A stretch of DNA of 64,000 bases, from the NCBI GenBank assembly GCA_964443025.1, contig CAYUEL010000002.1:2916-66915 (forward strand), read 5' to 3'. The position numbers were made by a program, and so were the translations under genes. This document shows, piece after piece, positions 30,401 through 47,136 of the stretch. This DNA comes from an uncultured Gammaproteobacteria bacterium. Its GTDB lineage: Bacteria > Pseudomonadota > Gammaproteobacteria > JABCZS01. The notes beneath the pieces were generated by a model. It worked only from the letters and a program-made list of their open reading frames with translations, had not been told where the DNA came from and searched no databases. Each line of letters opens with the position of its first letter. Position 1 is the stretch's first letter.

Positions 30401-33400
30401 AGAAACCGTATCAAAATCAGTCTTATTCAAAGACAACTGCGCAGACGGCTGAGGCTCGATTTGTTTTTGCGAAATCCAATATTTGTTCTTTGCAAAACAA
30501 TAAGTGGGCAAGCGGAATTTTTTAAAAGAGATCCCGGTGTCAAGGTGGCTTAATGACGCCTGCATGTTTATCTGTGAGCTCTCTTCGGGGGTATTCTCAA
30601 GAAATAATTGAATTCTATTAATTAACTCAGGTTTATCACTTGCCGTAAAAACAATTTTGTATTTCATCAAATCTCTACAGAACCTTAATGTGAGGGCAAT
30701 ATGTGGCAAATGTTCTTGCGCAATCTGCTCCTGGCTTTTGATGAATTTCAAAAATCTTTTCACATTTTTAATTAGCGAAGGAACGCTTTGTGCAGAAAAT
30801 AAAAATTCGATAGGTTTTTGAATCGATATTGAAGGTAACCCTTTTCTTTTCTCGGAATACTCTTCGATTACAATATGTGCGTTGGTACCGCTATAACCAA
30901 AAGCAGATAGTGCCGCTTTCCGGAGCCCTGAATGCGTAATCCAACTTTGATGCTGAGTACTTACATAAAATGGGCTATTTTTAAAATCAATATGTTCGTT
31001 TGCAGTTTGATAATTTATACTGGGCACCAATTCTTTATGCTGTAAACAAAGTAAAATTTTAACCAATGACGTTAAACCGGCTGCTGCCGAAGTGTGACCC
31101 ACATTGGTTTTTACTGAACCAATCGCACAACTGCTATCTTTCACACCTTCTTTTTGATAAACAGTAGTCAACGCTTCGAGTTCGATCGGATCTCCTAGTT
31201 TGGTGCCAGTTCCATGCGCTTCAATATAGGAAATCGAGTGAGGATCAATTTCATTTTTTTTATATACACTTTGGATTAATTCTATTTGCGATTGTGTGCT
31301 GGGCGCAGTAATCCCATTGGTTTTTCCATCTTGATTAATGCCAGAACCAGTAATTACACCATAAATGTGATCATGATCATGAATCGCATCGTCTAGTCGT
31401 TTTAAGACCACGGCAACTACGGCTTCACCGGGAACAAATCCATTTGCACGTCGATCAAACGTAAAGCATTGTCCGTCTTCTGAAAGCATACCCGCATCGC
31501 ACATTCTAAAATAATTACTCTCACCCAAATAAAGAGTTACACCTCCTGCAAGCGCCATATCAATTTCATTCAAACGAAGTGCTTGGCAAGCAAGATGAGT
31601 TGCGACTGCAGAAGAAGAGCATGCCGTATCCACTGCAATCGCCGGCCCTTTAAGATTAAGTAAATAAGCCATACGCGCAGCTAAAATAGCATTTGAGTTT
31701 CCCGTGGCCGTCTGCGCTAAGCCTGAATGTTCTTTGCTGGATAAAACGTTTTGCCAATAATCATTTTGCATGACCCCAATATAGGAACCGCATTGAATTT
31801 GACTCAGTTTTTCAGGGGTATAATTGGCATCTTCAAAAGCTTTCCAGGCTTCTTGTAAAAATAATCTTTGCTGGGGATCCATGCACTCTGCTTCTGCCGG
31901 GGAAAGATTAAAAAATAATGGATCAAATTCGTCAATATGAGATAACTCACCTATCCATTTGCAATATACCTTGTTTTTATTCTTTTTGTTTGCATCGTAA
32001 AATTGATTCACATCCCATCGAATATTTGAAACTTCAGTAATGCTGTTGACGCCATTTTTTAAATTATCCCAAAATTCATCAATCGATTCAGCGCCCGGGA
32101 ATCTTCCAGAAACACCAATAATAGCGATTTTATTGTGATTATTATGCGAGACTTCTGATTCCTGCTTAACGTCAGACACATGATTGATTTTATTTTTCGT
32201 TTCATTCAATAAAAATTGCGCAAGTTTTTCAATGGTTGGGTAATCATAAATTCGCGTTGCAGGAAAATGGATCCCAAAATTCGACTTAATTCGCTTTGAA
32301 AACTCGATGCCTACAATAGAATCCAAGCCAAGATTAATTAATTCCAGCTTTTCATCAATCTCTTCTTCATTAATAAAAAGCGATTTTGCAAGCTCAGTCT
32401 TTAGAAAGCATTTGATCGCTGCATAGGTTTGACTTTGATCAAAGAATTGATTTTGTTCCATCATAAGAGAATAATCAGTCGCTTGTGATTTTTTGCTTTC
32501 CAGAGGGGGGGCAATCTGCTCATTGTCTATTTTGATTTCAGAGAAAGTTGTACACTTTTGATGAGCACTCACTAAATTCTCAGAGAAATTTTCAGGATTA
32601 ATTAAAGATATTTTTTCCACAACAGCTCTCTTTTCATGTTTTGTACTCAACTCAATTAAATTTTTCTTAAATGGATACCCGGGCAGCGAAACGCTTTTCC
32701 CCGGTTTTTCTTCAAACAACGATCTCCAATCTACAACGCTACCATTCAACCATGCTGTTGACAATGGTGATAATTCCGTATGAGTCGTATAATCAACTTC
32801 CCCAGAAACATATTTTTTGAGCTTAGTTTCTAAGCTTTTTGCATTATTTGCATAGACTACTGCTCTATATTTTTGCGGAACACGGCAACAACACAATGTA
32901 TAGGCAATATCACGCATAGATAGGTGAATGTGATTGATGCGCATGAACTCCAGATGGGTTAACAGTGCTTGGGCATAATTTTTAAGTCCCTCCTCATAAC
33001 CGCATGAAAATATACATGGAAATTCTCTGCCATCATCTAAAACGTGATCATCTTTACTGCGGTATTCTTCCACAATCACATGGGCATTGACACCACCTGC
33101 ACCAAACGAGCTCACGCCAGCAATTCTTCGATTGTTTTTCACTATCCACGAGTCAAGGTGATGTTGCAAATAAAAAGGAGATTCCGCAAAATTAATGTTA
33201 GGATTAACGATTGCTGAATGAATCGAAGGAAATTTCTTTTTGAATTTTATTTGCAATAATATTTTTATTAATCCTGCAATCCCCGCAGCCGCCTCTAAAT
33301 GCCCAATGTTTGATTTAATGGAACCAATAGCACAATAGTTTTTTTGCTGAGTTGATTCTTGAAACGCTTGAGTCAGTGCTGTAATTTCAATCGGATCGCC

Positions 33401-36400
33401 CAAAAAGGTTCCAGTACCATGTGCCTCAATATAACTTATGGCATCCGCACTAATTTGTGCTTCTCCGATCGCTTTGGCTACTAAATCTCTTTGCGCATTA
33501 GGATTCGGTACCGTGTAGCCACTGGTTCTACCTCCATGGTTTACCGCACTGCTTTTGATGATGCCATAGATATGGTTACCATCTCGAATCGCAGCGCTAA
33601 GTGGTTTTAGTACTGCTATGCCCACGCCCTCTCCAGGAACAAAGCCATCAGCATTTCCACCAAAACTTCTGTTTTCAGCGGTGGTAGATAACATCCCCAT
33701 TTGACATAAATATTGATAATTAGAAGGATGTAAATAGAGATTTACACCTCCAGCCAAAGCTATTTCACAATCTCCCCTTAAAATGTTCTGACAGGCTTCA
33801 TGCACGGCAACTAAAGAGGATGAACACATAGTATCTATGGCTAAACTGGGCCCTTTCAAATTGAAAAAAAACGAAACACGATTTGCAACGGAACTAAATG
33901 AAGTTCTTGGATAAAAACCATCTGTTTCATTTTTAAGAAATTCAAATCCATTTTTTGTGATTCCAGCAAAAACGCCGACGTTTGTTCCACTTATTTTTTT
34001 TACATCGATTCCAGCATCTTCTAAAGCGTGCCATGCAGTCTCTAAAAACAAGCGTTCGTGTGGGTCAATTTGTAGCGCTTCCTTTGGAGAAATATTAAAA
34101 AATAAACTATCAAATTTATTAAAATTATCAATAAATCCGCCCCATTTTGAATAAATTTTATTTTGATTAATCGCCTCTTCTTTGTTAGGGGTAAAATGTT
34201 CATTAAAATTCCAACGTTCAAGCGGTATTTCCGTAATGCAGTCTTTTCCGTTCATAAGATTAACGCAAAACTCATCAATACTATTTGCCCCTGGGAATCG
34301 ACCCGCGATTCCCACAATGGCAATTTCAGTTGACCTAGGGTCTGAGCGTTCGGATTCTGTATCCTGAACTTGATCTGGGTGTTGATTATAGTTGTTAAAC
34401 AAATAATCCGCTAATTCGCGAATGGTTTTACACTCATACAATACCGTTTTAGAAAGATTGGGATAGATTTTTTCAAGTTCTCGATTAATGTTAATGACCA
34501 TAATCGAATCCATGCCAAATTCTGAGAACTCAATATCGCTGTGAATGTCCGATAGATTTACTTTAGAATATTTTGAGAATAATGATTGAATCTGATCTTC
34601 GATTTCAGAAAGGTTCTGTTTTTTATTCCTTGAATGTAGATGGCTTTGTACAGGCTGGGCCATTTCACATTGAAGACTTTCGTTTAACTTTTGACTAAAA
34701 ATGGATTGATTTCCGAATGCAACAATAACCTCATCATCTTCTATGCCAAGAGCTCCGTAAAGTGACTCCATGCCTTTTGAAAATTCTAGCGGCAGCATGC
34801 CTAAATTTTCTTTAAAATGCATTTCAACTTCAGGCGTGACGTTCATGCCTCCACTTTCCCACAAAGGCCAACTAATCGATGAAGTACGTCCAAAACGTTG
34901 ATTTTTTTTCACCTGTTCATTTCGATAATGTGCATATTGATTCATGAATGCATTGGCTGCTGCGTAATCAGACTGACCAGCATTCCCCATGCAACCCACA
35001 AAAGATGAAAAAAGGATTATAAAATCAAGCGGAAGATCTTTTGTAGCTTTATCAAGATAATAAAGACCCAACACTTTTGGATTTAGAACTTGAGGGAATT
35101 CATCACTGCTTTTATTATAAATATAATTATCTTTAATCATGCCTGCGCAGTGAATAATGCCAGATAATCCGTGATGCCTTGAAACAATATCAACAATCAT
35201 TTGGTTGATCGCAAATTGATCACTTATATCTAGTGAATAATAATTAATTTTGCAATTGTTCTTTTCAAGGGATTGTATTTTTTTCTGAATGTTTTCATTG
35301 AGAGCAGTTCGACCGCAAATAATTATTTTTCCATTTTGAATACAATTTGTTATCTCTGTTGCCAACGCGTAACCAAGGGCACCGAATCCCCCTGTAATCA
35401 AATAAACACCCTGATTTTTCCAAGGCATTTTTTTAAGCAAAGGCTTTTCCTTCCAGTGCGTAATGTATCTTTTTTCGGAGGAATACATAATTTCCACGTC
35501 CCTCATCAAGGCAGACTGGTCAAGTCGATGGCGCAATTCTTCAAGCTTCGTTTTACGGTCAAGACCTATGATTTGTACCTTAATGGCTGGAAACTCAATA
35601 TGAAGCGCTTTTAAGAACGCAGAAAACCCAATATAAACTTGATATTCATTAAAAAATGGAAAGACCACTTGGATGAGGATTGGACTGACTCTTCCTGACG
35701 ATTTGCTGATTTTTGATTTTAATCGATTAAAAATAGCAATGAGATGGTTTTGGTAGTTTAGTGCAATATTGTCTTCAGTAGTTCTTAACACAACACATTC
35801 AGCTGTTTTTATTTTAGATTGAAGATATGCTTGTACAGTTTCATAGGTCTCATCAAGTATTTGATTGGCTTCTATAATAAAAATCATTTTGGAATCAAAG
35901 TGAACTTTGTCATTAACAACTGGTTCAGTTTTCACCTCTACATGTGATTTTATATAAATTCTTAGTTCACTTTTTTCATTTAAACTTTGATTAAACCAAT
36001 ATTTGTCTGTCAAAAACGCATACCCTGGCAAACTAATCAGCTTGCCTTGCTGTCCATTGTAGAATTGCCTCCATTCAATTGACCCCCCTTTCATCCATGA
36101 TTCAATCGTTTCTTTAAAAGAAGAATTAATTGTGCCTAAGAGCTTCTGATCACTCAACATAGCTTCTTGCAATAAATGTTTTAACTCTTTTAAATCATTG
36201 GCAACAATGCAGAGCCGTTTTGGCATCGCTTCACGACCGATTTGCAAAGTATAAGTGATATCTTCTAGTTGAATGGTCTGGTTTTCTTTTGACAGCAGCT
36301 GAGATACAAATTGATAAAACTGATGAACGATGTTTCCAAGACTTTGATTATTTTTTGCAGACAAAATAAAAATATTTGAAACATGAGGAATAAATAATGA

Positions 36401-39400
36401 TTCATGCTGTGTCTGATGTTCTTCTAAAATAACATGTGCACCTACACCACCAAATCCAAAAGAACTGACACCGGCACGCCTTGGATATTGAACAGACCAT
36501 TTTTCATTATCTTGAACAAGGTGCATGTGTGTTGTTGATAAATCAATATATCGGTTGATTTGCGTTAAATTAGGATTACCGGGGATAGTGTGATGTTTAA
36601 AACTTAAAATAACCTTTAAAACACCCGCAAGTCCTGCTGCAGCTTCTAAATGTCCTAAATTTGCTTTTACGGTTCCGATCGCACATTTACTTTGTGCGTA
36701 ATTGTGTTTCAATCCTTCAATTTCAATAGGATCACCTAATGCAGTTCCTGTTCCATGCGCTTCAATGTAACTCACGGAGGTTGCATCAATATTTGAGCGT
36801 CGCAAAGCACTTGCAATAATATGAGCTTGCGAGGTTGCGCTTGGAGCGGTTAATGAATGACCGTGTCCGGTATGTCCCACAGCAGAGCCTTTAATTACAC
36901 CATATATTTGATTTTTTTCTTGAATTGCTTTATGCAGCGGTTTTAATAAAAGTGTAACAATTCCTTCTCCTCTCACATAACCATTGGCATGTTCATCAAA
37001 TGTGTAACAACGCGCATCAGGGCTTAACATCCCTGATTGCTGAAATGCATAAGACGTTCGGGGAGATAAGATCAGGTTGACCCCTCCAACTAAAGCCATT
37101 TCACATTCACCTTGATTTAAAGATAAAAGCGCTCGATGTAATGCAACTAAAGAGCTCGAGCATGCGGTATCAATAACTTCACTTGGCCCTTGTAGATTAA
37201 AGAAAAATGATATTTTATTGGCCAGCATAGAATGTGCTAAGCCCGTGGAAGTATAGGCTTCTCTTAATACACCTTCTTCTGCCAGAAGCTCCTGGTAATC
37301 ACTATGCATTGCACCGATGAAAACACCAACTGATCGATTTGATGCTTGATGAAGAGCAACTCCAGCTTCCTCAAAAGTATGCCAGGCGACTTGTAATAAC
37401 TTTCTTTGCTGTGGATCCATTAACTCTGCTTCTAAAGGGGAAATATTAAAAAATTTCGCATCAAACTCTTCTACACCTTCGATAAACCCAGCTTTTTGTA
37501 ACACTGGATCGAGTGCTAAAAATTGAGTGTGGCCCGGTCTTTCTTCTGAAATCTGCCGAATAGAAATCTTCTGGTTGCACAGATTCTCCCAAAATTGACT
37601 GAATGTCTCTGCATCTGGCAGCAATGCGCCAATTCCGATGATCGCAACCTCTGTTGAATGGTTATTAAGAGATGAATGAAGTAAGCGAGGCTTTTCTTGC
37701 GCCGAAAGTCGAGCAATAATATCTTCAATATTCTGCCTTTCAAAAAAAAGAACCGGGGTAGTATTTAGCTGAAATTTTTCATTAAGTTGATGGGACAATT
37801 CGCGATATTCAAGCGATGAAAACCCCATGTCAGATAAATATTCTTTCCGATCTATTTCGCTGGAAGGCACACCAAGGATATTGGCAATTATTTCAATCAC
37901 GTGCTTTGCAAAAGACTCTGCAGTGACTTCAGGTTTTTTTAAATGGGATTCCTGCTGATTCGCTTGCGAAACCCAATAGCGCGTATGACTGAACTGATAA
38001 GTCGGCAATTTGCATTTATTGATGGGTTGGTTTTTATATAATGATTCCCAATAAATCTCTTGACCTTGAACCCATAATTTTGCAATTTCACCTAGTTGTC
38101 TTTTTTGAATAAACTTATATATTTCAGTGGAGTCAGTTGTTTTGGTCGTGGCACTATTGATATAATAATCATACTTCTTAATTTCATTTCTCAATGTTTG
38201 ATCGATTTTGTGTTTTAATTCTTTAGCCGATCCGGCAAGATAAGCCACTCTTTCTTGCATTTCTTCACGGGTGGTTTGTAAACTATAAGCGATGCTTTCT
38301 AGGCAAGCAGCGTTAGCATCCTGTTTAACATCAAGAAAATGACTGAATGCTTTTAGGTAACGATTTAAATCTTCTTTACTTTTTGCAGAAAAAATAAATA
38401 ACTCTACTTTTTCTTTCCTTGAAGCGTTGTTTTTTTTCGGCGAATTTTTAAATTTTTCTAAAATTATATGAGCATTCACGCCACCCAATCCAAATGAACT
38501 CACGCCCGCTCTAAGCGGAGCTCTGCGGCTACTTGCATGCCAAGGTGTCCATTGATTGACAATATAAAATGGTGTGTCGGTCAGATCAATTTGTTGATTC
38601 AATTGCTTATGATTTGAAGTCATCGGCAATTCTTGATATTTAAAGGCCGCCAATATTTTTAAAATTCCCGCTAATCCCGAAGCAGATTCAAGATGACCTA
38701 GCTGTGACTTAATCGAACCCAAGCCACATTTCATTGTTTTAAAATGATTACCCGTTAATCGTTTAAATGCTTGAATCAGTGCTTGAGTTTCAATCGGATC
38801 CCCTACTCGAGTTCCACTGCCATGTGTTTCGATGTAACTCAGCGATTCTGCTTGAATACCACTACGTTGATAGACCTGTTCGATTAATCGTGCTTCTCCA
38901 TCTACGCTCGGCGTCGTTAATGAGTGTGTTTTACCGCCATGATTGTGTCCTGCGCCTTTGATTACGCCATAAATAAAATCTTTATCATGAATCGCATGTT
39001 TTAATGGTTTTAGAATCAGTAACCCGCCCCCTTCACTTCGCACATAGCCATTGGCTTCCTGATCGAAACTTTTGCACTGAGCATCTTTTGACAACATGCC
39101 TGCTGAATAATAAGCCAAACTTTGTTGCATAGAGCAAATAAGATTGATTCCACCGGCAATAGCAAGCGTGCAATGTCCTGCTTGAAGAGCTTGTACCGCT
39201 TGGCAAATCGCGACCAACGCAGAAGAAGACGCTGTATCGATCGATAAACTTGGGCCTACTAAATTAAAATAATGGGAAATTCGGTTTGAGGCTAAAAATA
39301 ACCCTTGGGTTTGTGCAAGATAACTGAGATCTAGGTTATTCTCCTGGGTAAACAACTGATGATAGCCAGATTGGCCGAGCCCAATATAAACCCCTGTGTT

Positions 39401-39799
39401 CGAATTTTTGAGTCTAGAAGGTTTATAGCCTGCATCTTCAAAACATTCCCAAGCCAGCTCCAGCAAAATCCGCTGCTGCGGGTCCATCATCTTGGCTTCT
39501 CTTGGGGAAATATCAAAAAAATACTCAGCAAATTGATCAATATCATTCAAGAAACCACCTTGATCAATACCTGGATATTGGTGTTGAATATCAAGCCCCT
39601 CAGGCCATTGCCACCGCTCTTTGGGCAGGGGTTGTATGGTCTGCTTATTTTCCTTTAATAGCGACCAGAGGCTTCCAAGCGTATGACAATTACCGGGCAA
39701 GCGAAACGAAGTGCCGATAATCGCGACATCGTTTTTTCTTATAAAATATTCTTTAATACTTCTCACAACTACGCCACCCCAACCTTCCGGATACGACAA
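27467..39799 (-). CDS. Trans-AT PKS megasynthase 1 (4110 aa): KS(Cys->Ser)-ACP | KS-KR-ACP | KS-ACP | KS-KR-ACP | KS
   Basis: The first KS reads DTASSSALV, with codon TCT at 39227-39229 where Cys is expected. It is followed by four canonical KS domains (DTACSSSL, DTMCSSSL, DTACSSSA, DTACSSSL), all with HGTGT. KR motifs are YLITGGFGALG and FLITGGLGGLG. ACP serines are DMGFSS, GMDS, GLDS and GIDS. The gene ends with a KS whose module continues in the next protein as a split module. The apparent start is TTG at 39797-39799, 8 nt after the map stop. Confidence 0.9.
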   Translation of the reverse strand: MSYPEGWGGVVVRSIKEYFIRKNDVAIIGTSFRLPGNCHTLGSLWSLLKENKQTIQPLPKERWQWPEGLDIQHQYPGIDQGGFLNDIDQFAEYFFDISPREAKMMDPQQRILLELAWECFEDAGYKPSRLKNSNTGVYIGLGQSGYHQLFTQENNLDLSYLAQTQGLFLASNRISHYFNLVGPSLSIDTASSSALVAICQAVQALQAGHCTLAIAGGINLICSMQQSLAYYSAGMLSKDAQCKSFDQEANGYVRSEGGGLLILKPLKHAIHDKDFIYGVIKGAGHNHGGKTHSLTTPSVDGEARLIEQVYQRSGIQAESLSYIETHGSGTRVGDPIETQALIQAFKRLTGNHFKTMKCGLGSIKSQLGHLESASGLAGILKILAAFKYQELPMTSNHKQLNQQIDLTDTPFYIVNQWTPWHASSRRAPLRAGVSSFGLGGVNAHIILEKFKNSPKKNNASRKEKVELFIFSAKSKEDLNRYLKAFSHFLDVKQDANAACLESIAYSLQTTREEMQERVAYLAGSAKELKHKIDQTLRNEIKKYDYYINSATTKTTDSTEIYKFIQKRQLGEIAKLWVQGQEIYWESLYKNQPINKCKLPTYQFSHTRYWVSQANQQESHLKKPEVTAESFAKHVIEIIANILGVPSSEIDRKEYLSDMGFSSLEYRELSHQLNEKFQLNTTPVLFFERQNIEDIIARLSAQEKPRLLHSSLNNHSTEVAIIGIGALLPDAETFSQFWENLCNQKISIRQISEERPGHTQFLALDPVLQKAGFIEGVEEFDAKFFNISPLEAELMDPQQRKLLQVAWHTFEEAGVALHQASNRSVGVFIGAMHSDYQELLAEEGVLREAYTSTGLAHSMLANKISFFFNLQGPSEVIDTACSSSLVALHRALLSLNQGECEMALVGGVNLILSPRTSYAFQQSGMLSPDARCYTFDEHANGYVRGEGIVTLLLKPLHKAIQEKNQIYGVIKGSAVGHTGHGHSLTAPSATSQAHIIASALRRSNIDATSVSYIEAHGTGTALGDPIEIEGLKHNYAQSKCAIGTVKANLGHLEAAAGLAGVLKVILSFKHHTIPGNPNLTQINRYIDLSTTHMHLVQDNEKWSVQYPRRAGVSSFGFGGVGAHVILEEHQTQHESLFIPHVSNIFILSAKNNQSLGNIVHQFYQFVSQLLSKENQTIQLEDITYTLQIGREAMPKRLCIVANDLKELKHLLQEAMLSDQKLLGTINSSFKETIESWMKGGSIEWRQFYNGQQGKLISLPGYAFLTDKYWFNQSLNEKSELRIYIKSHVEVKTEPVVNDKVHFDSKMIFIIEANQILDETYETVQAYLQSKIKTAECVVLRTTEDNIALNYQNHLIAIFNRLKSKISKSSGRVSPILIQVVFPFFNEYQVYIGFSAFLKALHIEFPAIKVQIIGLDRKTKLEELRHRLDQSALMRDVEIMYSSEKRYITHWKEKPLLKKMPWKNQGVYLITGGFGALGYALATEITNCIQNGKIIICGRTALNENIQKKIQSLEKNNCKINYYSLDISDQFAINQMIVDIVSRHHGLSGIIHCAGMIKDNYIYNKSSDEFPQVLNPKVLGLYYLDKATKDLPLDFIILFSSFVGCMGNAGQSDYAAANAFMNQYAHYRNEQVKKNQRFGRTSSISWPLWESGGMNVTPEVEMHFKENLGMLPLEFSKGMESLYGALGIEDDEVIVAFGNQSIFSQKLNESLQCEMAQPVQSHLHSRNKKQNLSEIEDQIQSLFSKYSKVNLSDIHSDIEFSEFGMDSIMVININRELEKIYPNLSKTVLYECKTIRELADYLFNNYNQHPDQVQDTESERSDPRSTEIAIVGIAGRFPGANSIDEFCVNLMNGKDCITEIPLERWNFNEHFTPNKEEAINQNKIYSKWGGFIDNFNKFDSLFFNISPKEALQIDPHERLFLETAWHALEDAGIDVKKISGTNVGVFAGITKNGFEFLKNETDGFYPRTSFSSVANRVSFFFNLKGPSLAIDTMCSSSLVAVHEACQNILRGDCEIALAGGVNLYLHPSNYQYLCQMGMLSTTAENRSFGGNADGFVPGEGVGIAVLKPLSAAIRDGNHIYGIIKSSAVNHGGRTSGYTVPNPNAQRDLVAKAIGEAQISADAISYIEAHGTGTFLGDPIEITALTQAFQESTQQKNYCAIGSIKSNIGHLEAAAGIAGLIKILLQIKFKKKFPSIHSAIVNPNINFAESPFYLQHHLDSWIVKNNRRIAGVSSFGAGGVNAHVIVEEYRSKDDHVLDDGREFPCIFSCGYEEGLKNYAQALLTHLEFMRINHIHLSMRDIAYTLCCCRVPQKYRAVVYANNAKSLETKLKKYVSGEVDYTTHTELSPLSTAWLNGSVVDWRSLFEEKPGKSVSLPGYPFKKNLIELSTKHEKRAVVEKISLINPENFSENLVSAHQKCTTFSEIKIDNEQIAPPLESKKSQATDYSLMMEQNQFFDQSQTYAAIKCFLKTELAKSLFINEEEIDEKLELINLGLDSIVGIEFSKRIKSNFGIHFPATRIYDYPTIEKLAQFLLNETKNKINHVSDVKQESEVSHNNHNKIAIIGVSGRFPGAESIDEFWDNLKNGVNSITEVSNIRWDVNQFYDANKKNKNKVYCKWIGELSHIDEFDPLFFNLSPAEAECMDPQQRLFLQEAWKAFEDANYTPEKLSQIQCGSYIGVMQNDYWQNVLSSKEHSGLAQTATGNSNAILAARMAYLLNLKGPAIAVDTACSSSAVATHLACQALRLNEIDMALAGGVTLYLGESNYFRMCDAGMLSEDGQCFTFDRRANGFVPGEAVVAVVLKRLDDAIHDHDHIYGVITGSGINQDGKTNGITAPSTQSQIELIQSVYKKNEIDPHSISYIEAHGTGTKLGDPIELEALTTVYQKEGVKDSSCAIGSVKTNVGHTSAAAGLTSLVKILLCLQHKELVPSINYQTANEHIDFKNSPFYVSTQHQSWITHSGLRKAALSAFGYSGTNAHIVIEEYSEKRKGLPSISIQKPIEFLFSAQSVPSLIKNVKRFLKFIKSQEQIAQEHLPHIALTLRFCRDLMKYKIVFTASDKPELINRIQLFLENTPEESSQINMQASLSHLDTGISFKKFRLPTYCFAKNKYWISQKQIEPQPSAQLSLNKTDFDTVSLGVKFLDEQNEKNNESHYDVVLAMAKWEREIPSNSDLKNQQETSEYLFINFQQDSLAALVNQLQNSCKEFYFNINQAKAPIEIVTAIFNYLKEKLSQKTHQMVCAIVVPNQNIHLYAPLAGLIKSMQIENPKIKTKLIALDQAILTNPSIAAETLRNEMQQNSQHQFVRYDENHARWVQTLNRYASAHLRTDLFSNRVFLITGGLGGLGKKVAEYISQFKNTKIILCGRKAPAIDDQQWMSSLILHGAHVIYEKCDITRADEVQNLIDSIMKNHDSLSGIFHCAGVLKDSLLINKTVSEFEDVLSPKLLGLHWLDTYTKDIALNFVVLFSSVASIKGNIGQVDYAAANAYLDGYVEYRDHLVAKGKRSGRTIAINWPLWAEGGMTLEPHHEDWQLRRTGLSVLRSKLGLEILHGILTLNQSGQIMVAYGVMDKIAQYFNIAVDKQPSANQTSGLIVKNDQNKIRTEVLEIISHMLKIDASQLDFNDNFSEYGIDSILMMRLLNELEKKYQIIMDPNSIIMHPTINQLSEYLINSAGVEQTTENNFESITVKTSNHASQNKVAIIGYTGILPQSPTLEDFWVNLTTGRDLITNPPTDRWGKFSVEDKHITYGGYLNDISSFDAERFAIDDSNALILDPQQRVLLELADDLLKRAGYIDKIKDTNTVVYIGAKENNYVRNNYKEIPKNVIKNTIVSYIGNIIAARISNFYNLRGASKTIDTACSSSLVAMHDACQSILHGESELAIAGGIFLLIDPFAHIGFNNANVLSPDGKSYVFDKRANGFVLSEGAGLVLLKNYNAAIRDGDRIIATILASAINNDGKTMGLTVPNQEGQKEVIHRALSLANINPEQISYYEAHGTGTLLGDPIEVKAASDVYRNYTSKNQFCAIGSVKSNIGHTMMAAGVASIIKILLSMEHNMIPPTIHCESPHPRFNFDKSPFYPIVSTEEWKSRVNRTIAAVSSFGFGGTNSHMILEKMGD

Positions 39800-41217: not shown

Positions 41218-41933
41218 ACAAATATCAAACCTCCTTATCTTTGCGGCGTACAGAAGTTCACCTTCATTCTACATTATTTATTGATTCACCCGGGCAGGAA
41301 TATTTATTTGGTCATTACACAGACTTTCTCAGCACTGAAGAAGAACTATATTTTAGAAAATTAAAATACGAGAAAAGACAATACAGTTATCTGCTAGGAC
41401 GATATTGTGCTAAAAAAGCACTTTCTATGTGGCCATTTCACCAAAATCCCAAAACATGCACTATTTCATCCGGTATATTTTCTCAACCCATCCTGACAAC
41501 ACCCGATGTGAGAAATATCCAAACTTGTATAACACATTCTTCATTTCTAGGGGGCGCTATTGCATTTCCAGAGCAACATCCGATGGGACTTGATCTAGAG
41601 CCTATTAATCCTGACAAAGAAGAAATTTTAAATAGTCAAATGACAACACACGAGGTGGAGAAATTTTCTGAATTGCCTTTGGTCAGCATCGATCGGATGA
41701 CTTTGCTTTGGGTCATGAAAGAAGCATTATCAAAAGTGCTTCGCACTGGATTAACTATTCCATTTGAACTTTTAGAAATAGAATCCATAACAATAGATGG
41801 AGATTATATTTACAGTACATATAAAAATTTTCCGCAATATCAAGCGTGTTCTTTTCAAATACGAGATCATTTTTGTGCGCTAGCATATCCAAGAAAAACC
41901 ACTTTAATGTTTGACCAAAAACATCATGAATAA
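41208..41933 (+). CDS. Sfp-type 4'-phosphopantetheinyl transferase
   Basis: GLDLEPI (the GxD(L/I)E motif) and WVMKEALSKVLRTGL (the W..KEA..K motif). It overlaps both neighbouring genes. Confidence 0.75.
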   Translation: MFMNKYQTSLSLRRTEVHLHSTLFIDSPGQEYLFGHYTDFLSTEEELYFRKLKYEKRQYSYLLGRYCAKKALSMWPFHQNPKTCTISSGIFSQPILTTPDVRNIQTCITHSSFLGGAIAFPEQHPMGLDLEPINPDKEEILNSQMTTHEVEKFSELPLVSIDRMTLLWVMKEALSKVLRTGLTIPFELLEIESITIDGDYIYSTYKNFPQYQACSFQIRDHFCALAYPRKTTLMFDQKHHE

Positions 41934-42873
41934 AATATTTTTATTTCCAGGTCAAGGCTGTCAATATTATCACATGGGCAAACAACTCTATCAGGATTCT
42001 TCTGTATTTAAGGAATGGATTGATTATGGTGATCGTTTATGTCTGCAATTTATAAAAAAATCAGTCTGGGATACGGTCTGCCATCCACAATTTAAACCCA
42101 GCGATCCGCTATTGTGCATTCTTACAACACATCCCGCTATTTTTATCTTTGAATATGCAATGGTGCAATTTTTAGAAAGTAAAGGCATCACCCCAGATAG
42201 TGTTCTCGGTTCAAGCTTGGGAGAATTTGCAGCATCCGTGTGCGCAGAAAGAATAAGCTATCAACACGCATTAGAAGGCATTATTCATCAAGCACAAACC
42301 ATTTCGCATCTATGCGAACAAGGTGGAATGCTCGCAATACTTTCTCAGGTGGAACTGTACGAGACTGAAAAAACACTGTTTGAAAACAGCGAGATTGCAT
42401 CAGTAAATTTTAATGATGGTTTTGTCGTATCTGGTATACATTCGCGGTTACAACACATTCAAAATGAACTAAAGTCAAAAAAAATTCCATGTCAGTTATT
42501 GCCTGTTTTATATGCATTTCACTCAAGACATATTGAATACGCCAAAGATTTGCATCTTAATTTTTTAACTCAAATCCCGATGAAAAGGGCGCAGATCCCC
42601 TATATTTCAACTCTTGATCACCCTAAAGATCATCATCCAGAAAATGCATCTTATTTCTGGAGGGTTGCGCGCGAGGCGATGAACATTAAAAAAACCATTG
42701 CTGATTTAGAGAAAAACATGAGTTCACTATATATTGATTTAGGACCATCAGGGACATTTGCTAATATCGTTAAATATAATTTACAACCCCATTCTCAATC
42801 CAAAACTGTGTGCACCATCAATCCCTATGAAAACAACCTTAAAAGTATTGAAAAATTATTGGCGCTCTTTTAA
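41911..42873 (+). CDS. Free-standing FabD-like acyltransferase / acyl hydrolase (second trans-AT)
   Basis: FPGQGCQ, nucleophile elbow GSSLGEF (Ser replaces the usual His of GHSxG), distal YAFHSRHI. Confidence 0.75.
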   Translation: MTKNIMNKIFLFPGQGCQYYHMGKQLYQDSSVFKEWIDYGDRLCLQFIKKSVWDTVCHPQFKPSDPLLCILTTHPAIFIFEYAMVQFLESKGITPDSVLGSSLGEFAASVCAERISYQHALEGIIHQAQTISHLCEQGGMLAILSQVELYETEKTLFENSEIASVNFNDGFVVSGIHSRLQHIQNELKSKKIPCQLLPVLYAFHSRHIEYAKDLHLNFLTQIPMKRAQIPYISTLDHPKDHHPENASYFWRVAREAMNIKKTIADLEKNMSSLYIDLGPSGTFANIVKYNLQPHSQSKTVCTINPYENNLKSIEKLLALF

Positions 42874-43608
42874 GCGTTCAATATTTTTTAGCACTTCATC
42901 TTGAAAAAAAGTTACTTCATGCATGGACAGTTCTCGCTCAATATATTGCTGTAAAGTGGGTAAAACCATTAAGCGAAAATGTTCTTTGAGTTTTAAGAGT
43001 GAAATACGTGGCTTATCTGCCATTTGATGTGCAACAGACATAGCCGACTCTACCACATCCGCTCGATCTAGCACTTCAATACCCAACTGTCTTGTTTTTA
43101 ATTCCTCACCATAAAAATTTTTTGCGGTATATAACATTTCCCGGCCAAGCGTTTCACCAAATACTTTTGGAATAATATAAGTAGAACCAAATCCTGGAGT
43201 AAATCCATAACTCATAAAGTTTGCACTATAAATGGATTGTCTCGCTAAAATAATCACATCGGCAAAACATCCCATGGCTAAACCACCGCCTAAAGCATGG
43301 CCCTGCATGGCGCTAATCACAGGAACAGCACAGTTGAGCAAAATATCATGAATTTTTAAATCAGTAAAATTGCATTTTTTTTCATAAATACTCAACAATT
43401 CTTCTTGTGTTCCACCGCAACAGAAATAGTTATCATATCCGTGCAGTACCACCACTTTAATCTGTTCATCTTGATTGATGTGCTGAAAAGCCAAAATAAG
43501 TCCTTTTCTAAGATCTAAAGAAAACATATTGTGATTTTCTCGATCTTCCATAGAGACTCGGGCAATATGCTTGTTCACATAGAGCTTAACAACATGATTT
43601 ATGTCCAT
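42856..43608 (-). CDS. Enoyl-CoA hydratase/crotonase family, beta-branching ECH (PksI-like decarboxylase)
   Basis: Crotonase fold (VVLHGYDNYFCCGGTQEEL, GHALGGGLAM). Last gene of the accessory minus-strand operon. Confidence 0.7.
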   Translation of the reverse strand: MDINHVVKLYVNKHIARVSMEDRENHNMFSLDLRKGLILAFQHINQDEQIKVVVLHGYDNYFCCGGTQEELLSIYEKKCNFTDLKIHDILLNCAVPVISAMQGHALGGGLAMGCFADVIILARQSIYSANFMSYGFTPGFGSTYIIPKVFGETLGREMLYTAKNFYGEELKTRQLGIEVLDRADVVESAMSVAHQMADKPRISLLKLKEHFRLMVLPTLQQYIERELSMHEVTFFQDEVLKNIERLKERQ

Positions 43609-44378
43609 GGTAATTTATCTTCTCGAATGTATTGAAGAATGGCAGATTGAACTTGCTTGTCTTTAATTATTTCACTGGCGGTATTAATTGCGATATTCTC
43701 CATGGCTTCATTCACAATCCATATTTGTCTAAAATAATTTTTAAGGTTTTTAATCGTATTGAATTTTAATAAACGTAAGCGATGCAAGTATTTTTCAATT
43801 ACGCGTTGCGGATCTTCGGCAATTTCATCAATTAAACCAATTTGTTTTGCATCTGCAGAAGAAAATGTGTGACTCATCAACGCCATTTTATACGTGTTTT
43901 GAAAACCAATTTTTCTAATTAGATAAGGCGCAACGCATGCAGGTAATAACCCCCACAACGCTTCAGGTAAACCAAACCGTGACTTTGTCGATGCCACAAC
44001 CAAATCGCTTACAGCAATAATCCCCATTCCCCCGCCAAGCACCACTCCATTCACTTGGCTAACCACAATCTTGGGTAAACAAGACAGGGTTTTAATCAGT
44101 TCCATGTATTTTTTAGACAATAAGACATTTGAATCGGTTTCCTGATTGATGATTTTATTTGCTGCATCAGCCAAATCTAAGCCAGTGCAAAAATAAGATT
44201 CATTTCCTTTGATAAGAATCACTTTATATTGCTCATTTTCTTCGAGTTGGTTTAGAACAAATAAAAGCTCATCTATTAGCGTTTCATTCATGCTGTTTTG
44301 ATTTTCAGCACGATTCATTGTGATTTGGTAAACATCACCTTTCTCGTCACATTGAATTGTTTTAAAATTTTTAATCAT
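43599..44378 (-). CDS. Enoyl-CoA hydratase/crotonase family, beta-branching ECH (PksH-like dehydratase)
   Basis: Crotonase fold (ILIKGNESYFCTGLDL, GVVLGGGMGI). It overlaps both neighbours. Confidence 0.7.
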   Translation of the reverse strand: MIKNFKTIQCDEKGDVYQITMNRAENQNSMNETLIDELLFVLNQLEENEQYKVILIKGNESYFCTGLDLADAANKIINQETDSNVLLSKKYMELIKTLSCLPKIVVSQVNGVVLGGGMGIIAVSDLVVASTKSRFGLPEALWGLLPACVAPYLIRKIGFQNTYKMALMSHTFSSADAKQIGLIDEIAEDPQRVIEKYLHRLRLLKFNTIKNLKNYFRQIWIVNEAMENIAINTASEIIKDKQVQSAILQYIREDKLPWT

Positions 44379-45636
44379 ATTTTTTAACTAAAATTGACGA
44401 GTTGATTCCACCAAACCCAAATGAATTTGACAAAGCATAAGAAACATTTTCCTGATCATTGAGATTAAATTTCCATGAGCAATCCTGAGAAAGTGGATTA
44501 ACCAGGTTTTTATTTTCATGAATATACCCTCCTCGCATTTGTAAAATCGTCGCAATGATTTCAACAACACCTGCCGAAAATAAACAATGACCTGTCAGCG
44601 ATTTTGTAGAGTTAATAAAAAGATTATGGATATGATGAGAAAATACACTCTTAATTGCATCGATCTCAGCTTGATCGCCAATAGTTGAGGAAGTTCCGTG
44701 TGCGTTTACATAATTGATTTCTTCAGGTTGAATTTTTGCTTCAAACATACACTTTCGCATTACTCGTTCTTCGCCTTGCTGATCAGGCTGGGTAGATTTA
44801 TTGCCATCTAGCAGAATAATTCCATGCACTAGTTGAGCCAGTGCCACTCCCCCTCGTTTTTCCATGGATTGCTTTGATTCTAAAATAAGACACCCTGTAC
44901 CTTGACCATAAATAAAACCTTCGCGTTGCTGATCAAAAGGACGGCACGCAAGCTCGGGTGTTTGGTAAAAACTTTTTCCACCCATTGCGCCGATCTGATC
45001 CATCGCTTGGATGGCTAACGGCGAAAGTTCTGATAAGGCGCCAATGACTAAGCAAACCTCTAATTTTCCGAATTGGATCAATTCCATCGCTTTGATAATT
45101 GCCACATTGCCACTTGCTGATGCACCGTTTGCTGCAAATCCTTGACCATGGATTGTCAATAGTTCGCTGATCGTTCCCACGTGATCGGTTTCAAGTGCAT
45201 GAATAGGATATTTAGGTGAAACAAATTGTGGTTTGCTTTGAAATTTTAAGTTCGCCTGGTATTGAAAATGTTGTAAGGTTTGATCAGCAGCCACTACAAT
45301 ACCGATTTGATCACTTTCAGGTGTTAAAGTCTCCAGGCCTGCCATGATCCATGCCTCGAGTGCAGTTAAAACAGAAGTTTGGACGGGCAATGGAGCCCTT
45401 GCTGAATCTTGTGCACGGTTTTGTATTTGCTCTTGAATTTTTGCAAATTGCCCTAAACGCTCAAGATAGGAAAATTCTTGTAGCGGCGCATAAACGGTTT
45501 TGATTTCATGATGATTAACCACTTCATGGTATTGTTTAAAATGCGTGATACCTCGACGCAAGGATTGATCAAAATCAGGAATGGTATTGCCATTAGAGGA
45601 TTGCACACCCATACCTGTGACATAAACCTCCTTCAA
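44371..45636 (-). CDS. Free-standing decarboxylating ketosynthase (KS-S, PksF/MupG-like) of the beta-branching cassette
   Basis: FabF-like. The active-site Cys is replaced by Ser (ANGASASGNVAI versus TACASG). Both His motifs are retained (NAHGTSST, TGHCLFSAG). Confidence 0.8.
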   Translation of the reverse strand: MKEVYVTGMGVQSSNGNTIPDFDQSLRRGITHFKQYHEVVNHHEIKTVYAPLQEFSYLERLGQFAKIQEQIQNRAQDSARAPLPVQTSVLTALEAWIMAGLETLTPESDQIGIVVAADQTLQHFQYQANLKFQSKPQFVSPKYPIHALETDHVGTISELLTIHGQGFAANGASASGNVAIIKAMELIQFGKLEVCLVIGALSELSPLAIQAMDQIGAMGGKSFYQTPELACRPFDQQREGFIYGQGTGCLILESKQSMEKRGGVALAQLVHGIILLDGNKSTQPDQQGEERVMRKCMFEAKIQPEEINYVNAHGTSSTIGDQAEIDAIKSVFSHHIHNLFINSTKSLTGHCLFSAGVVEIIATILQMRGGYIHENKNLVNPLSQDCSWKFNLNDQENVSYALSNSFGFGGINSSILVKKYD

Positions 45637-45908
45637 TTATGGATTCCTTCTTGAGAAATAAGTGTCACAAGCTCTTGAATAGTGTTTGCCTTGGTTAATT
45701 TCACAAGGGGGATGTTGAGTTCTAATTTTTCAAGCGTCAACATGATAATTTCCAAACGATCAACTGAGTTTGCACCTAAGTCTTGCAATGGACGATTAAA
45801 CTCAATTTCTGTCAATTGAGGAAACACACTCAAAATACTGTTTTTCAGTGCCGCAAGTACAATAGACTTTTCCATGTTACCTCCACTCATAAATTCGATG
45901 GAATTCAT
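45633..45908 (-). CDS. Discrete donor acyl carrier protein (AcpK-like)
   Basis: 91 aa with DLGANSVDRLEI (Ser attachment site). It lies between the KS-S and the HMG-CoA synthase homolog. Confidence 0.7.
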   Translation of the reverse strand: MNSIEFMSGGNMEKSIVLAALKNSILSVFPQLTEIEFNRPLQDLGANSVDRLEIIMLTLEKLELNIPLVKLTKANTIQELVTLISQEGIHN

Positions 45909-47136
45909 TAATTTCTTTCAAATAAAGGCGCTTTTCATTTAGTTTTGATAAATAACTATAAGGAATAACGTCACTATGAATTTGGACATTGCGAGTGCCG
46001 AATTTAACCATTTGGCTGGTACGCAGAATTTTTTCATAATCACTGATACTTAATTTAAATCGCTTAGATAAATGAGGTTCAATCTGCATCTGTTTGAGCG
46101 TTTGATGTGACTGCAACGTCACAATACCGCTATAAAATTCTGAGCAACATCCAGAGCCATATGAAAATATTCCTATACGTTTGGGTTTGTTGTACTCCCC
46201 ATTTTCTATCGTGCTGGCTAAAGATAAAAATACCGTTGCCCCCATAATATTACCAACGCGTTGACAATAATTGACCCCCGCTTCTACCCGTTGCGTATAA
46301 TCTTGTTCAATATCTTCCAATGGCATTTTGTAAAGCTTTCTCATCATGCTGCGATGTGCGCCTTTGACCATACCGCCGAACGGTGTATGAAATGACAAAT
46401 AGCCAAAACTCTGTAAATAATCTGCTCCTGAAACTTTGCGTTGGTAAGCTAGAAAAGCTTGTTCACAACAATCTAGATAAGAGCTCAACGATAAATCAGA
46501 GTCTCCTGCTTCACTGTCTGGTACAGGCCTACAAGTATCCATGACTTCATAACCATAGTATCCGTTGGCGCCCACATCCACATGAAAGACTTTGGGTTTT
46601 TCACTGACCAATAATGCAACTGCGCCAGCACCAGAGCTAGGTTCTGCGAATGACCATTCCATATTAATTACATCGCTACCGTCGACAACCATAAATCGAG
46701 AAATATCTGTTGCCACCACCAGTGCTTTTGCTCCCGGCGAAGTCTGCGATAAAATAAAATGAATCGCCATTTGAAATCCAGCTGTACCAGAATAACAGGC
46801 TTGTTTTATTTCGAACATTCGGCAATGTTTGCTTAAGCCCAAATAATCATGAATATAAGTGCTCATAGACTTGCCAAAATCAATACCAGATTCTGTGCAA
46901 GTAATTAATAACTCAATCTGATTTTTTTCTTCTGCAGTTAATTGATCAATCAAAGGTTTTGCCGCATTGACTGCAAATGTCACAGGATCTTCAAATGGTA
47001 GCGAAACTGATTTCTCTTTCATTAATAAATTTGAAAAGCGACCCATATTGAGATTTCGATATTCCGCAAGTTCGGTGACATCTAAAACTGCCGTGCCACC
47101 AAACACATTCATTGATTCAATTCCAACTGCAGGCAT
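45877..47136 (-). CDS. HMG-CoA synthase homolog (HCS, PksG-like) for polyketide beta-branching
   Basis: HMGS family. Active-site Cys context KQACYSGTAGFQ, plus EPSSGAGAVALLVS. Confidence 0.85.
   Translation of the reverse strand: MPAVGIESMNVFGGTAVLDVTELAEYRNLNMGRFSNLLMKEKSVSLPFEDPVTFAVNAAKPLIDQLTAEEKNQIELLITCTESGIDFGKSMSTYIHDYLGLSKHCRMFEIKQACYSGTAGFQMAIHFILSQTSPGAKALVVATDISRFMVVDGSDVINMEWSFAEPSSGAGAVALLVSEKPKVFHVDVGANGYYGYEVMDTCRPVPDSEAGDSDLSLSSYLDCCEQAFLAYQRKVSGADYLQSFGYLSFHTPFGGMVKGAHRSMMRKLYKMPLEDIEQDYTQRVEAGVNYCQRVGNIMGATVFLSLASTIENGEYNKPKRIGIFSYGSGCCSEFYSGIVTLQSHQTLKQMQIEPHLSKRFKLSISDYEKILRTSQMVKFGTRNVQIHSDVIPYSYLSKLNEKRLYLKEINEFHRIYEWR

What the first reader, a model, noticed from the sequence alone, without database searches (positions are those of the whole stretch)
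39200..39260. The first KS of the assembly line has Ser instead of the catalytic Cys (DTASSSALV), a probable loading or decarboxylating KS-S
Residue 191 of megasynthase 1 is encoded by TCT (minus strand; plus 39227-39229) where all other KS domains have Cys. The HGTGT and GH motifs are intact. A Cys-to-Ser KS cannot condense, but it keeps the malonyl-ACP decarboxylase chemistry, as the discrete KS-S of beta-branch cassettes does. At the N-terminus of the first module, followed directly by an ACP, it looks like a KS-Q-style loading domain that makes an acetyl starter. TCT is one transversion from TGT, so a sequencing error or a recent inactivating mutation must be excluded.
Basis: partly seen in the sequence, partly recalled or inferred. 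Interest (0 to 1): 0.55.

Follow-up and report, generated by a model that had tools for sequence, protein, structure and literature searches.

The report
Serine ketosynthase that starts a polyketide line
The first ketosynthase of this trans-AT polyketide assembly line really has serine in place of the catalytic cysteine; the change is conserved in distant relatives, so it is most likely a known kind of loading domain that makes the acetyl starter.

Summary
Codon TCT at 39227-39229 (minus strand) encodes Ser at the catalytic-Cys position of the first KS of megasynthase 1 (IDTASSSALV). Both catalytic His and the Lys are kept, although the motif reads HGSGT, not HGTGT. The other nine modular KS have Cys.

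It is neither a sequencing error nor a recent knockout. Three colinear orthologues of megasynthase 1, 46-54% identical in this KS and from independent assemblies, carry the same Ser (TCT/TCC) and the same Thr-to-Ser change. These four KS form one clade. That clade sits among the first KS found downstream of GNAT-ACP loading modules.

Across 150 large trans-AT PKS proteins, Ser occupies this position in 7 of 48 N-terminal KS and in 1 of 680 internal KS. Such KS are followed almost only by an ACP.

The cluster has its own complete beta-branch cassette, with a discrete KS-S. It has one malonyl-type AT (AT-ER), and its second "AT" is an acyl hydrolase.

Best reading: a KS-S-ACP loading module that decarboxylates malonyl-ACP1 to the acetyl starter. 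The activity itself is inferred. KS-S loading domains are already reported (nystatin, rimocidin, pimaricin, alpiniamide, oocydin), so this is a new member of a known kind.

The parts
27467..39799 (-). Megasynthase 1, the first trans-AT PKS subunit: KS1(Ser)-ACP1-KS2-KR-ACP2-KS3-ACP3-KS4-KR-ACP4-KS5. The likely true start is the GTG at 39766.
   Evidence: Colinear with the orthologues P0149, P0177 and P0213.
38444..39739 (-). KS1 domain (residues 21-452), the Cys-to-Ser ketosynthase.
   Evidence: Pfam ketoacyl-synt and Ketoacyl-synt_C. It is 47-54% identical to its orthologues, about the same as the Cys-bearing KS2 at 45-51%.
39227..39229 (-). TCT codon for Ser191 at the catalytic-Cys position.
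39203..39205 (-). Cys199, at a position that is His in 82% of Cys-type KS. The four clade members have Cys or Ser here.
38810..38824 (-). HGSGT motif (residues 326-330): the first catalytic His is kept and Thr328 is replaced by Ser.
38693..38710 (-). K364 to H369 (KSQLGH): the second catalytic His and the conserved Lys.
37697..37921 (-). ACP1 (residues about 627-701). The phosphopantetheine Ser662 sits in GFSSL (codon 37814-37816).
   Evidence: Pfam PP-binding has four stretches in megasynthase 1. An ACP follows the KS-S in all four orthologues.
36419..37651 (-). KS2 (Cys, HGTGT, GH), the first condensing KS and the presumed acceptor of the acetyl starter.
   Evidence: It branches at the base of the starter-accepting KS clade.
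4592..6823 (-). AT-ER: the only malonyl-type acyltransferase (GHSLG, with Arg at the position equivalent to FabD R117), fused to an enoyl reductase.
41911..42873 (+). AT-like acyl hydrolase (GSSLG, with Gln in place of FabD Arg117). It is not a starter loader.
   Evidence: Criteria are from PMC11775670.
44371..45636 (-). Discrete KS-S of the beta-branch cassette (NGASASG, HGTSS, GH).
   Evidence: It is 23% identical to KS1.
45633..45908 (-). Discrete donor ACP of the beta-branch cassette.
   Evidence: 91-aa ORF containing DLGANSVD. The orthologous 78-aa PP-binding gene lies in L072.
45877..47136 (-). HMG-CoA-synthase-like enzyme of the cassette.
42856..44378 (-). Two enoyl-CoA hydratase genes (the ECH pair) of the cassette.

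Best explanation
KS1-ACP1 is the loading module of a trans-AT polyketide synthase. The single malonyl-specific trans-AT (the AT-ER protein) malonylates ACP1. KS1 has Ser in place of the nucleophilic Cys, so it cannot form the acyl-thioester needed for condensation, but it keeps the His-His-Lys decarboxylation machinery. It decarboxylates malonyl-ACP1 to acetyl-ACP1. The acetyl group passes to the Cys of KS2, which performs the first condensation. Shown here: the residue, its conservation, the architecture, the phylogenetic position, and the absence of any other loading device. Inferred: malonylation of ACP1, the decarboxylation, and acetyl as the starter.
For: (1) Ser sits at the catalytic position, with both His and the Lys kept.
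(2) Three colinear orthologues of megasynthase 1 have an N-terminal KS with IDTASSSSLVA and HGSGT or HASGT. They are 46-54% identical in this KS. They are P0149 (L069-L071), P0177 (L072) and P0213 (L073). The Ser codons are TCC, TCT and TCT, and the flanking codons differ synonymously. Seven near-identical variants of P0149 all have Ser.
(3) The loci belong to one BGC family. L072 has P450, HMGS, ACP, a discrete KS-S, two ECH, the acyl hydrolase and AT-ER. L073 has a MetAP and a P450.
(4) KS1 is as conserved among the orthologues as the active KS2: 47-54% against 45-51%. It is therefore not decaying.
(5) The four KS-S form a clade (78 of 100 neighbour-joining bootstraps). The clade is nested among KS that lie directly after (MT-)GNAT-ACP loaders. 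KS2 branches at the base of that starter clade.
(6) Ser occupies this position in 7 of 48 N-terminal KS against 1 of 680 internal KS (Fisher p = 2.7e-8).
(7) N-terminal Ser/His KS are followed by only 123-356 aa (linker plus ACP) before the next KS in 7 of 9 cases. The same is true of 1 of 37 N-terminal KS with Cys and the His intact. No beta-processing domains follow, as expected if no beta-keto group is made.
(8) Thr-to-Ser in HGTGT accompanies Ser KS in 6 of 8 cases against 22 of 716 Cys KS. Thirteen of those 22 are His-less KS0. This marks non-condensing KS.
(9) The cluster has its own complete cassette KS-S plus donor ACP. Its second AT is an acyl hydrolase by both diagnostic motifs (PMC11775670). 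There is no room for a GNAT upstream of KS1.
(10) Precedent: KS-S loading domains are reported in the alpiniamide, oocydin, nystatin, rimocidin and pimaricin synthases and are proposed to decarboxylate (PMC6113372).
Against: No biochemical evidence exists for this protein or its orthologues. In the nystatin loading module the Ser was reported not to be crucial for initiation (cited in PMC6113372). From my own memory of Witkowski et al. 1999, Cys-to-Ser in animal FAS, unlike Cys-to-Gln, did not raise uncoupled decarboxylation. The substitution alone therefore does not prove an efficient decarboxylase. The cluster's acyl hydrolase would be expected to hydrolyse acetyl-ACP, so acetyl-ACP1 must somehow be protected. 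The product and its starter unit are unknown. The statistics count sequences, not independent evolutionary events: the Ser KS fall in about three or four lineages.
Confidence: 0.7

Rival explanations
1. KS1 is a catalytically silent scaffold kept for dimerisation or for docking ACP1. ACP1 is primed some other way: by the discrete cassette KS-S acting in trans, by spontaneous decarboxylation, or by acetyl transfer from acetyl-CoA.
For: The nystatin KS-S serine was reported as not crucial (PMC6113372). A discrete KS-S decarboxylase is encoded in the cluster and in L072.
Against: Ser, both His, the Lys and the Thr-to-Ser change are invariant across about 50% sequence divergence. A pure scaffold need not keep these. 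No acetyl-loading AT or GNAT is present, and the extra AT is an acyl hydrolase.
Confidence: 0.17
2. Ser191 acts as a nucleophile. KS1 would take an acyl group as an oxygen ester and either transfer it to ACP1 or still condense it, giving acetoacetyl-ACP1.
For: Some KAS III-type priming enzymes use Ser, for example DpsC (from memory, not tested here). KS1 derives from a clade of genuine starter-accepting, condensing KS.
Against: Module 0 has no processing domains, and neither do 7 of 9 modules headed by a Ser or His KS. KS2's nearest relatives are mostly not KS that follow KS-ACP keto modules. The Thr-to-Ser signature is shared with non-elongating KS0.
Confidence: 0.05
3. KS1-ACP1 is a fused second donor pair for HMGS beta-branching. 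It would make acetyl-ACP as the HMGS nucleophile rather than as the chain starter.
For: The chemistry is the same as that of the cassette KS-S plus donor ACP. The line has at least one KS-ACP module without KR (KS3-ACP3) where branching could occur.
Against: A complete discrete KS-S plus ACP plus HMGS plus two ECH cassette is present here and in L072. KS1 is a modular-type KS, 23% identical to the cassette KS-S. Without KS1-ACP1 the line would have no loading module at all.
Confidence: 0.04
4. The Ser is a sequencing or assembly error, or a recent inactivating TGT-to-TCT mutation in a dying cluster.
For: It is a single transversion. The window's proteins are singletons from one 73,959-bp contig. 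Reads could not be examined.
Against: The same Ser is present in three divergent orthologues and in seven variants from independent metagenome assemblies, together with co-conserved changes at three other normally conserved sites. All ORFs of the cluster are intact.
Confidence: 0.02

Closest known systems
KS-S loading domains of polyene cis-AT PKSs (nystatin NysA, rimocidin, pimaricin)
   Same: An N-terminal KS with Cys replaced by Ser and both His kept, heading a loading module for an acetate starter. They are proposed to decarboxylate (PMC6113372).
   Different: Those modules carry their own AT (KS-S-AT-...-ACP) and belong to cis-AT PKSs. Here there is no AT in the module, and the KS is of the trans-AT type (best solved match is bacillaene PksJ KS, 392 bits).
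Loading KS-S of the alpiniamide (AlpA1 KS0) and oocydin trans-AT systems
   Same: A Ser-for-Cys KS at the start of a trans-AT or hybrid assembly line (PMC6113372).
   Different: AlpA1's loading module has its own methylmalonyl-type AT. OocJ starts with DH-MT-FkbH-ACP (PMC4552970).
KS-Q decarboxylating loading domains of cis-AT PKSs (e.g. GfsA KSQ, PikAI)
   Same: The same logic: an N-terminal non-condensing KS turns malonyl-ACP into the acyl starter (bioRxiv 10.64898/2026.04.24.720606; PMC8302727).
   Different: They have Gln, not Ser. KS1 scores lower to GfsA KSQ (about 304 bits) than to trans-AT KS. Two KS-Q seen in related loci are not its close relatives.
Discrete KS-S of HMGS beta-branch cassettes (PksF/CurC type)
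   Same: Ser-His-His active site. Malonyl-ACP decarboxylation is the described function (SHH stated as the decarboxylating-KS signature in PMC9600693).
   Different: Those are free-standing proteins of about 420 aa encoded next to the HMGS. The cluster has one of its own (44371-45636), which is only 23% identical to KS1 and serves as the outgroup in the tree.
GNAT-ACP loading modules of trans-AT PKSs (CurA/PedI/AprA type)
   Same: They perform the same job, on-line decarboxylation of a malonyl starter, and are regarded as the usual trans-AT solution (PMC8302727). KS1's nearest Cys-type relatives are the KS immediately after such modules.
   Different: No GNAT domain is present. The decarboxylase role appears to have moved into the KS itself.

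Membership tests
Decarboxylative loading KS (KS-S/KS-Q type) | It is the first domain of the first subunit of the assembly line. | tested here: met
   The KS starts 10-20 residues after the start codon. The upstream gene (MetAP) ends 8 bp before the TTG. The three PKS genes are colinear, with the TE at the end of the third.
Decarboxylative loading KS (KS-S/KS-Q type) | The catalytic Cys is replaced by a non-thiol residue (Ser or Gln). | tested here: met
   Ser191, codon TCT at 39227-39229.
Decarboxylative loading KS (KS-S/KS-Q type) | Both catalytic His and the Lys are retained. | tested here: met
   H326 (in HGSGT), K364 and H369. All are invariant in the four orthologues.
Decarboxylative loading KS (KS-S/KS-Q type) | It is followed by an ACP in a module with no beta-processing domains. 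| tested here: met
   265 aa (linker plus ACP1) separate KS1 from KS2.
Decarboxylative loading KS (KS-S/KS-Q type) | A malonyl-specific AT is available to load the ACP. | tested here: met
   The AT-ER protein has GHSLG and the Arg equivalent to FabD R117. Actual loading of ACP1 was not tested.
Decarboxylative loading KS (KS-S/KS-Q type) | The substitution is conserved in orthologues, so it is not an error or a fresh mutation. | tested here: met
   Ser is present in P0149, P0177, P0213 and the fragment P0326.
Decarboxylative loading KS (KS-S/KS-Q type) | Malonyl-ACP decarboxylase activity without condensation. | not testable with these tools
   This needs in vitro mass spectrometry of the KS1-ACP1 didomain.
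Beta-branch cassette KS-S (PksF/CurC type) | A discrete protein of about 420 aa encoded with the HMGS and donor ACP, forming a separate KS lineage. | tested here: not met
   KS1 is an integrated modular KS, 23% identical to the cluster's discrete KS-S.
KS0 (non-elongating, transacylating KS of trans-AT PKSs) | Cys is kept and the His of HGTGT is lost. | tested here: not met
   KS1 shows the opposite pattern: Ser in place of Cys, with the His kept. KS10 of the same cluster (NTMCSST, AQGMGN) is a true KS0.
GNAT-type loading module | A GNAT-like domain and an ACP lie upstream of the first KS. | tested here: not met
   There is no coding room upstream of KS1 and no GNAT hit in the cluster.

The most novel reading that the evidence does not exclude
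KS-S-ACP, with no AT and no GNAT, is a distinct and recurrent trans-AT loading-module type. It arose by loss of a GNAT-ACP loader and conversion of the former first condensing KS into the decarboxylase. It can be recognised by a paired signature: catalytic Cys to Ser together with HGTGT to HGSGT. His and Thr variants at the catalytic position may be further forms of it. In this BGC family the module primes a polyketide whose target may be methionine aminopeptidase.
Probability: 0.4. Interest if true: 0.5.

Novelty: new member of a known kind. Interest (0 to 1): 0.38.

Why it matters
Correct structure prediction for this orphan cluster depends on knowing that module 0 adds no C2 unit and supplies an acetate starter. 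More broadly, recent papers give GNAT as the trans-AT solution and KS-Q as the cis-AT solution for on-line starter decarboxylation (PMC8302727). The census here shows that a Ser, or occasionally His or Thr, KS followed only by an ACP recurs at the N-terminus of trans-AT first subunits. It often carries an HGSGT signature that is also common in non-elongating KS0. This gives annotation tools a simple rule for calling such domains non-elongating loaders. It also gives engineers a compact, AT-free acetyl-loading didomain to test.

Tried and rejected
Searches that found no close relative of KS1:
- A word-indexed homologue search with KS1 gave a best hit of 50% identity; all 120 hits had Cys.
- Genome and metagenome contig scans gave a best hit of 47% identity; none of the 151 KS had Ser.
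- A profile search with the four KS-S listed only proteins shorter than about 800 aa. It added one fragment with Ser (P0326) and one N-terminal KS with Thr (P0366).
- Megablast of 39100-64000 against plasmids found nothing.

Source and identity of the window:
- An exact look-up of the HMGS protein in the contig index found nothing.
- The cluster look-up showed only that the window's proteins are singletons from one 73,959-bp NCBI contig.
- The TraD-like protein is only about 31% identical to Legionella TraD, so the organism stays unidentified.

What did work:
- The exhaustive representative search ranks hits by summed score over many KS, so it was useless as a ranking. Its 150 megasynthases, however, supplied the KS census and the orthologues.

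Not attempted or inconclusive:
- dN/dS was not attempted because synonymous sites are saturated at about 50% protein identity. Per-domain identity was used instead.
- Nearest-neighbour analysis of KS2 gave only a weak, mixed signal about its substrate.
- Literature searches for a described AT-less KS-S-ACP loader in trans-AT PKSs returned only the alpiniamide paper.
- Structure prediction was not run. The tool returns no coordinates, so active-site geometry could not be measured.
Full report
**The observation**

On the minus strand the window reads ATC GAT ACA GCG TCT TCT TCT GCG TTG GTC, which is IDTASSSALV. The first TCT lies at 39229-39227. It belongs to a 4110-aa ORF at 27467-39799. The Ser aligns with the catalytic Cys of a solved trans-AT KS (7zma, DTACSAS) and with the Cys of every other modular KS in the cluster.

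- The first catalytic His is present, but the motif is HGSGT, not HGTGT.
- The second His (GH) and the preceding Lys are present.
- The start codon is uncertain. The candidates are the TTG at 39799 and, more plausibly, the GTG at 39766, which has a G-rich run 8 nt upstream. Either way the KS is the first domain: the upstream gene ends at 39808.

**The setting: a trans-AT PKS cluster**

- Megasynthase 1 reads KS1(Ser)-ACP-KS2-KR-ACP-KS3-ACP-KS4-KR-ACP-KS5.
- Megasynthase 2 (12641-27466) has four KS, DH, KR and five ACP.
- A luciferase-like monooxygenase lies at 11563-12711.
- Megasynthase 3 (6840-11558) reads KS0-FMO-ACP-TE.
- An AT-ER lies at 4592-6823 and an ABC transporter at 2588-4585.
- Upstream of megasynthase 1 are a PPTase, an AT-like gene, a complete beta-branch cassette, two P450s and two methionine aminopeptidases.
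- The cassette comprises two ECH, a discrete 421-aa KS with NGASASG, a 91-aa ACP and an HMGS.
- Gene order and the terminal TE make megasynthase 1 the first subunit.

**Is the Ser real?**

Reads are not available. The window's proteins are singletons from one 73,959-bp NCBI contig. Direct searches with KS1 found nothing closer than 50% identity, and every hit had Cys or Gln.

The exhaustive representative search returned 150 large trans-AT megasynthases. I extracted about 730 KS domains from them with an HMM.

- KS1's best match among these is the N-terminal KS of P0149 (54% identity). P0213 and P0177 (47-49%) are also among its closest matches.
- All three read IDTASSSSLVA.
- These proteins (4061-4369 aa) are colinear with megasynthase 1 over their whole length.
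- Their loci carry the same accessory genes: P450 and acyl hydrolase in L069; P450, HMGS, ACP, discrete KS-S, two ECH, acyl hydrolase and AT-ER in L072; MetAP and P450 in L073.
- The Ser codons are TCC, TCT and TCT. The flanking invariant residues use different synonymous codons.
- Seven near-identical variants of P0149 all have Ser; the sequence was found on at least five metagenome contigs.
- A further fragment, P0326, has the same motif.

A sequencing error or a recent knockout is therefore excluded for all practical purposes.

**Is the domain decaying?**

No. Identity between orthologues is 47-54% for KS1 and 45-51% for the Cys-bearing KS2. KS3 to KS5 are more conserved, at 56-67%.

The four KS-S also share changes at positions that are otherwise highly conserved in 716 Cys-type KS:

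| Position | Usual residue (frequency) | In the four KS-S |
|---|---|---|
| 191 | Cys (100%) | Ser |
| 199 | His (82%) | Cys or Ser |
| 328 | Thr (93%) | Ser |
| 332 | Leu (91%) | Val |

- Thr-to-Ser in HGTGT accompanies 6 of 8 Ser KS, against 22 of 716 Cys KS.
- Thirteen of those 22 are His-less KS0.
- The change therefore tracks non-condensing KS.

**Where it comes from**

In a neighbour-joining tree the four KS-S are monophyletic (78 of 100 bootstraps). They are nested in a clade of KS that sit directly after loading regions. Pfam shows those regions to be AprA/CurA-type MT-GNAT-ACP or GNAT-ACP. KS2 branches at the base of the same starter clade.

KS1 is only 23% identical to the discrete cassette KS-S. 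It scores lower to the solved KS-Q of GfsA than to trans-AT KS. It is thus an independent Cys-to-Ser conversion of a starter-type trans-AT KS. It is not a relative of the cassette KS-S or of KS-Q.

**How general it is**

- Ser occupies the catalytic position in 7 of 48 N-terminal KS and in 1 of 680 internal KS (Fisher p = 2.7e-8).
- Two more N-terminal KS have His and one has Thr.
- N-terminal Ser/His KS are followed by only 123-356 aa before the next KS in 7 of 9 cases. By inspection this stretch is a linker plus an ACP.
- The same is true of only 1 of 37 N-terminal KS with Cys and the His intact.
- A module that never carries reductive domains is what one expects if it never makes a beta-keto group.
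- These counts are of sequences. The Ser KS fall in about three or four lineages, so the p-values overstate independence.

**What else could load ACP1?**

Nothing that can be seen.

- The 320-aa AT-like protein has GSSLG, and Gln in place of FabD Arg117. Its orthologues have GVSLG with Gln and GASLG with Asn.
- Only the AT-ER has GHSLG plus Arg.
- By the criteria of PMC11775670, the small protein is an acyl hydrolase, not an acyltransferase.
- There is no GNAT, no CoA ligase and no FkbH domain.
- The beta-branch cassette has its own KS-S and donor ACP, here and in L072. KS1-ACP1 is therefore not needed for branching.

**Mechanism proposed**

1. The AT-ER malonylates ACP1.
2. KS1 decarboxylates malonyl-ACP1 to acetyl-ACP1, using the retained His-His-Lys machinery.
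3. KS2 takes the acetyl group and starts elongation.

The decarboxylation and the identity of the starter are inferred, not shown.

Cautions:
- The nystatin KS-S serine was reported as dispensable (PMC6113372).
- From memory, Cys-to-Ser in animal FAS did not enhance decarboxylation.
- The cluster's acyl hydrolase should attack acetyl-ACPs.

The rival explanations are a silent scaffold with priming in trans, Ser acting as an acyl acceptor, a second HMGS donor pair, and a sequencing error. They are ranked in the report sections.

**Comparison with what is known**

KS-S loading domains are reported in the nystatin, rimocidin and pimaricin cis-AT PKSs, in alpiniamide AlpA1 (with its own AT) and in the oocydin synthase (PMC6113372). 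Recent papers still present KS-Q (cis-AT) and GNAT (trans-AT) as the two standard on-line decarboxylation devices (PMC8302727; bioRxiv 10.64898/2026.04.24.720606).

The present case is a new, uncharacterised member of the KS-S loading kind, in a minimal AT-less KS-S-ACP form. I did not find three points described in the papers I could search: its origin within the post-GNAT KS clade, the HGSGT co-signature, and the architectural census. They are modest refinements rather than a new principle.

**Verdict**

The finding is a new member of a known kind, of moderate-to-low interest.

Noticed in passing
window 39808-40653 (-) and 52990-53844 (-); L073:787-1542: Two methionine aminopeptidase (Peptidase_M24) paralogues lie inside the cluster. 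They are 66% identical, and one sits immediately upstream of megasynthase 1. A third MetAP (63-70% identical) lies next to the orthologous cluster in L073. This pattern is typical of self-resistance genes, so the product may target MetAP.
   Followed up: partly
window 15485-17173 and 19724-21412: A 1.69-kb direct repeat at 98.8% identity lies inside megasynthase 2, making KS8 and KS9 identical in sequence. It is either a very recent module duplication or gene conversion, or an assembly artefact.
   Followed up: partly
window 6840-11558 (-) and 11563-12711 (-): The last subunit reads KS0 (NTMCSST, AQGMGN)-FMO-like monooxygenase-ACP-TE and is preceded by a luciferase-like monooxygenase gene. This suggests in-line oxygenation (Baeyer-Villiger or hydroxylation type) just before chain release.
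   Followed up: no
window 41911-42873 (+); L069:8005-8958; L072:6635-7606: The stand-alone 'AT' is an acyl hydrolase by both diagnostic motifs (G[S/V/A]SLG, and Arg117 replaced by Gln or Asn). It is conserved in the BGC family. How the acetyl-ACP1 starter escapes it is an open question.
   Followed up: partly
P0132, P0251, P0366 (other trans-AT PKS first subunits): These N-terminal KS have His (VDAAHASS, IDAGHAAS) or Thr (IDTATSSS) at the catalytic position. In P0132 and P0251 an ACP and then a KS follow; what follows in P0366 was not examined. They may be further variants of non-condensing loading KS.
   Followed up: partly
P0160 vs P0162 (AGS77291.1, Myxococcus fulvus): An N-terminal KS-S (IEAASASS, HGSGT) is 71% identical to the N-terminal Cys KS (HGTGT) of a Myxococcus fulvus PKS. 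The Cys/Ser and Thr/Ser switch has therefore occurred between close relatives.
   Followed up: no
window 49682-52894 (-) and 53913-54821 (-): A 1070-aa protein has only a poly(A)-polymerase/CCA-adding head domain, at residues 600-811. A 302-aa protein has no Pfam match. Both sit between the P450 genes and the cluster edge; their function is unknown.
   Followed up: no
window 57122-57646 (-) and 59425-61275 (+): An ArdA antirestriction gene and a TraD/TrwB-type coupling protein (about 31% identical to Legionella plasmid TraD) flank the cluster. This suggests it lies on or beside a conjugative element. No plasmid in PLSDB matches at the DNA level.
   Followed up: partly
window 37814-37819 (-): ACP1 has GFSSL instead of the usual GxDSL around the phosphopantetheine serine. 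The three orthologues have DS.
   Followed up: no
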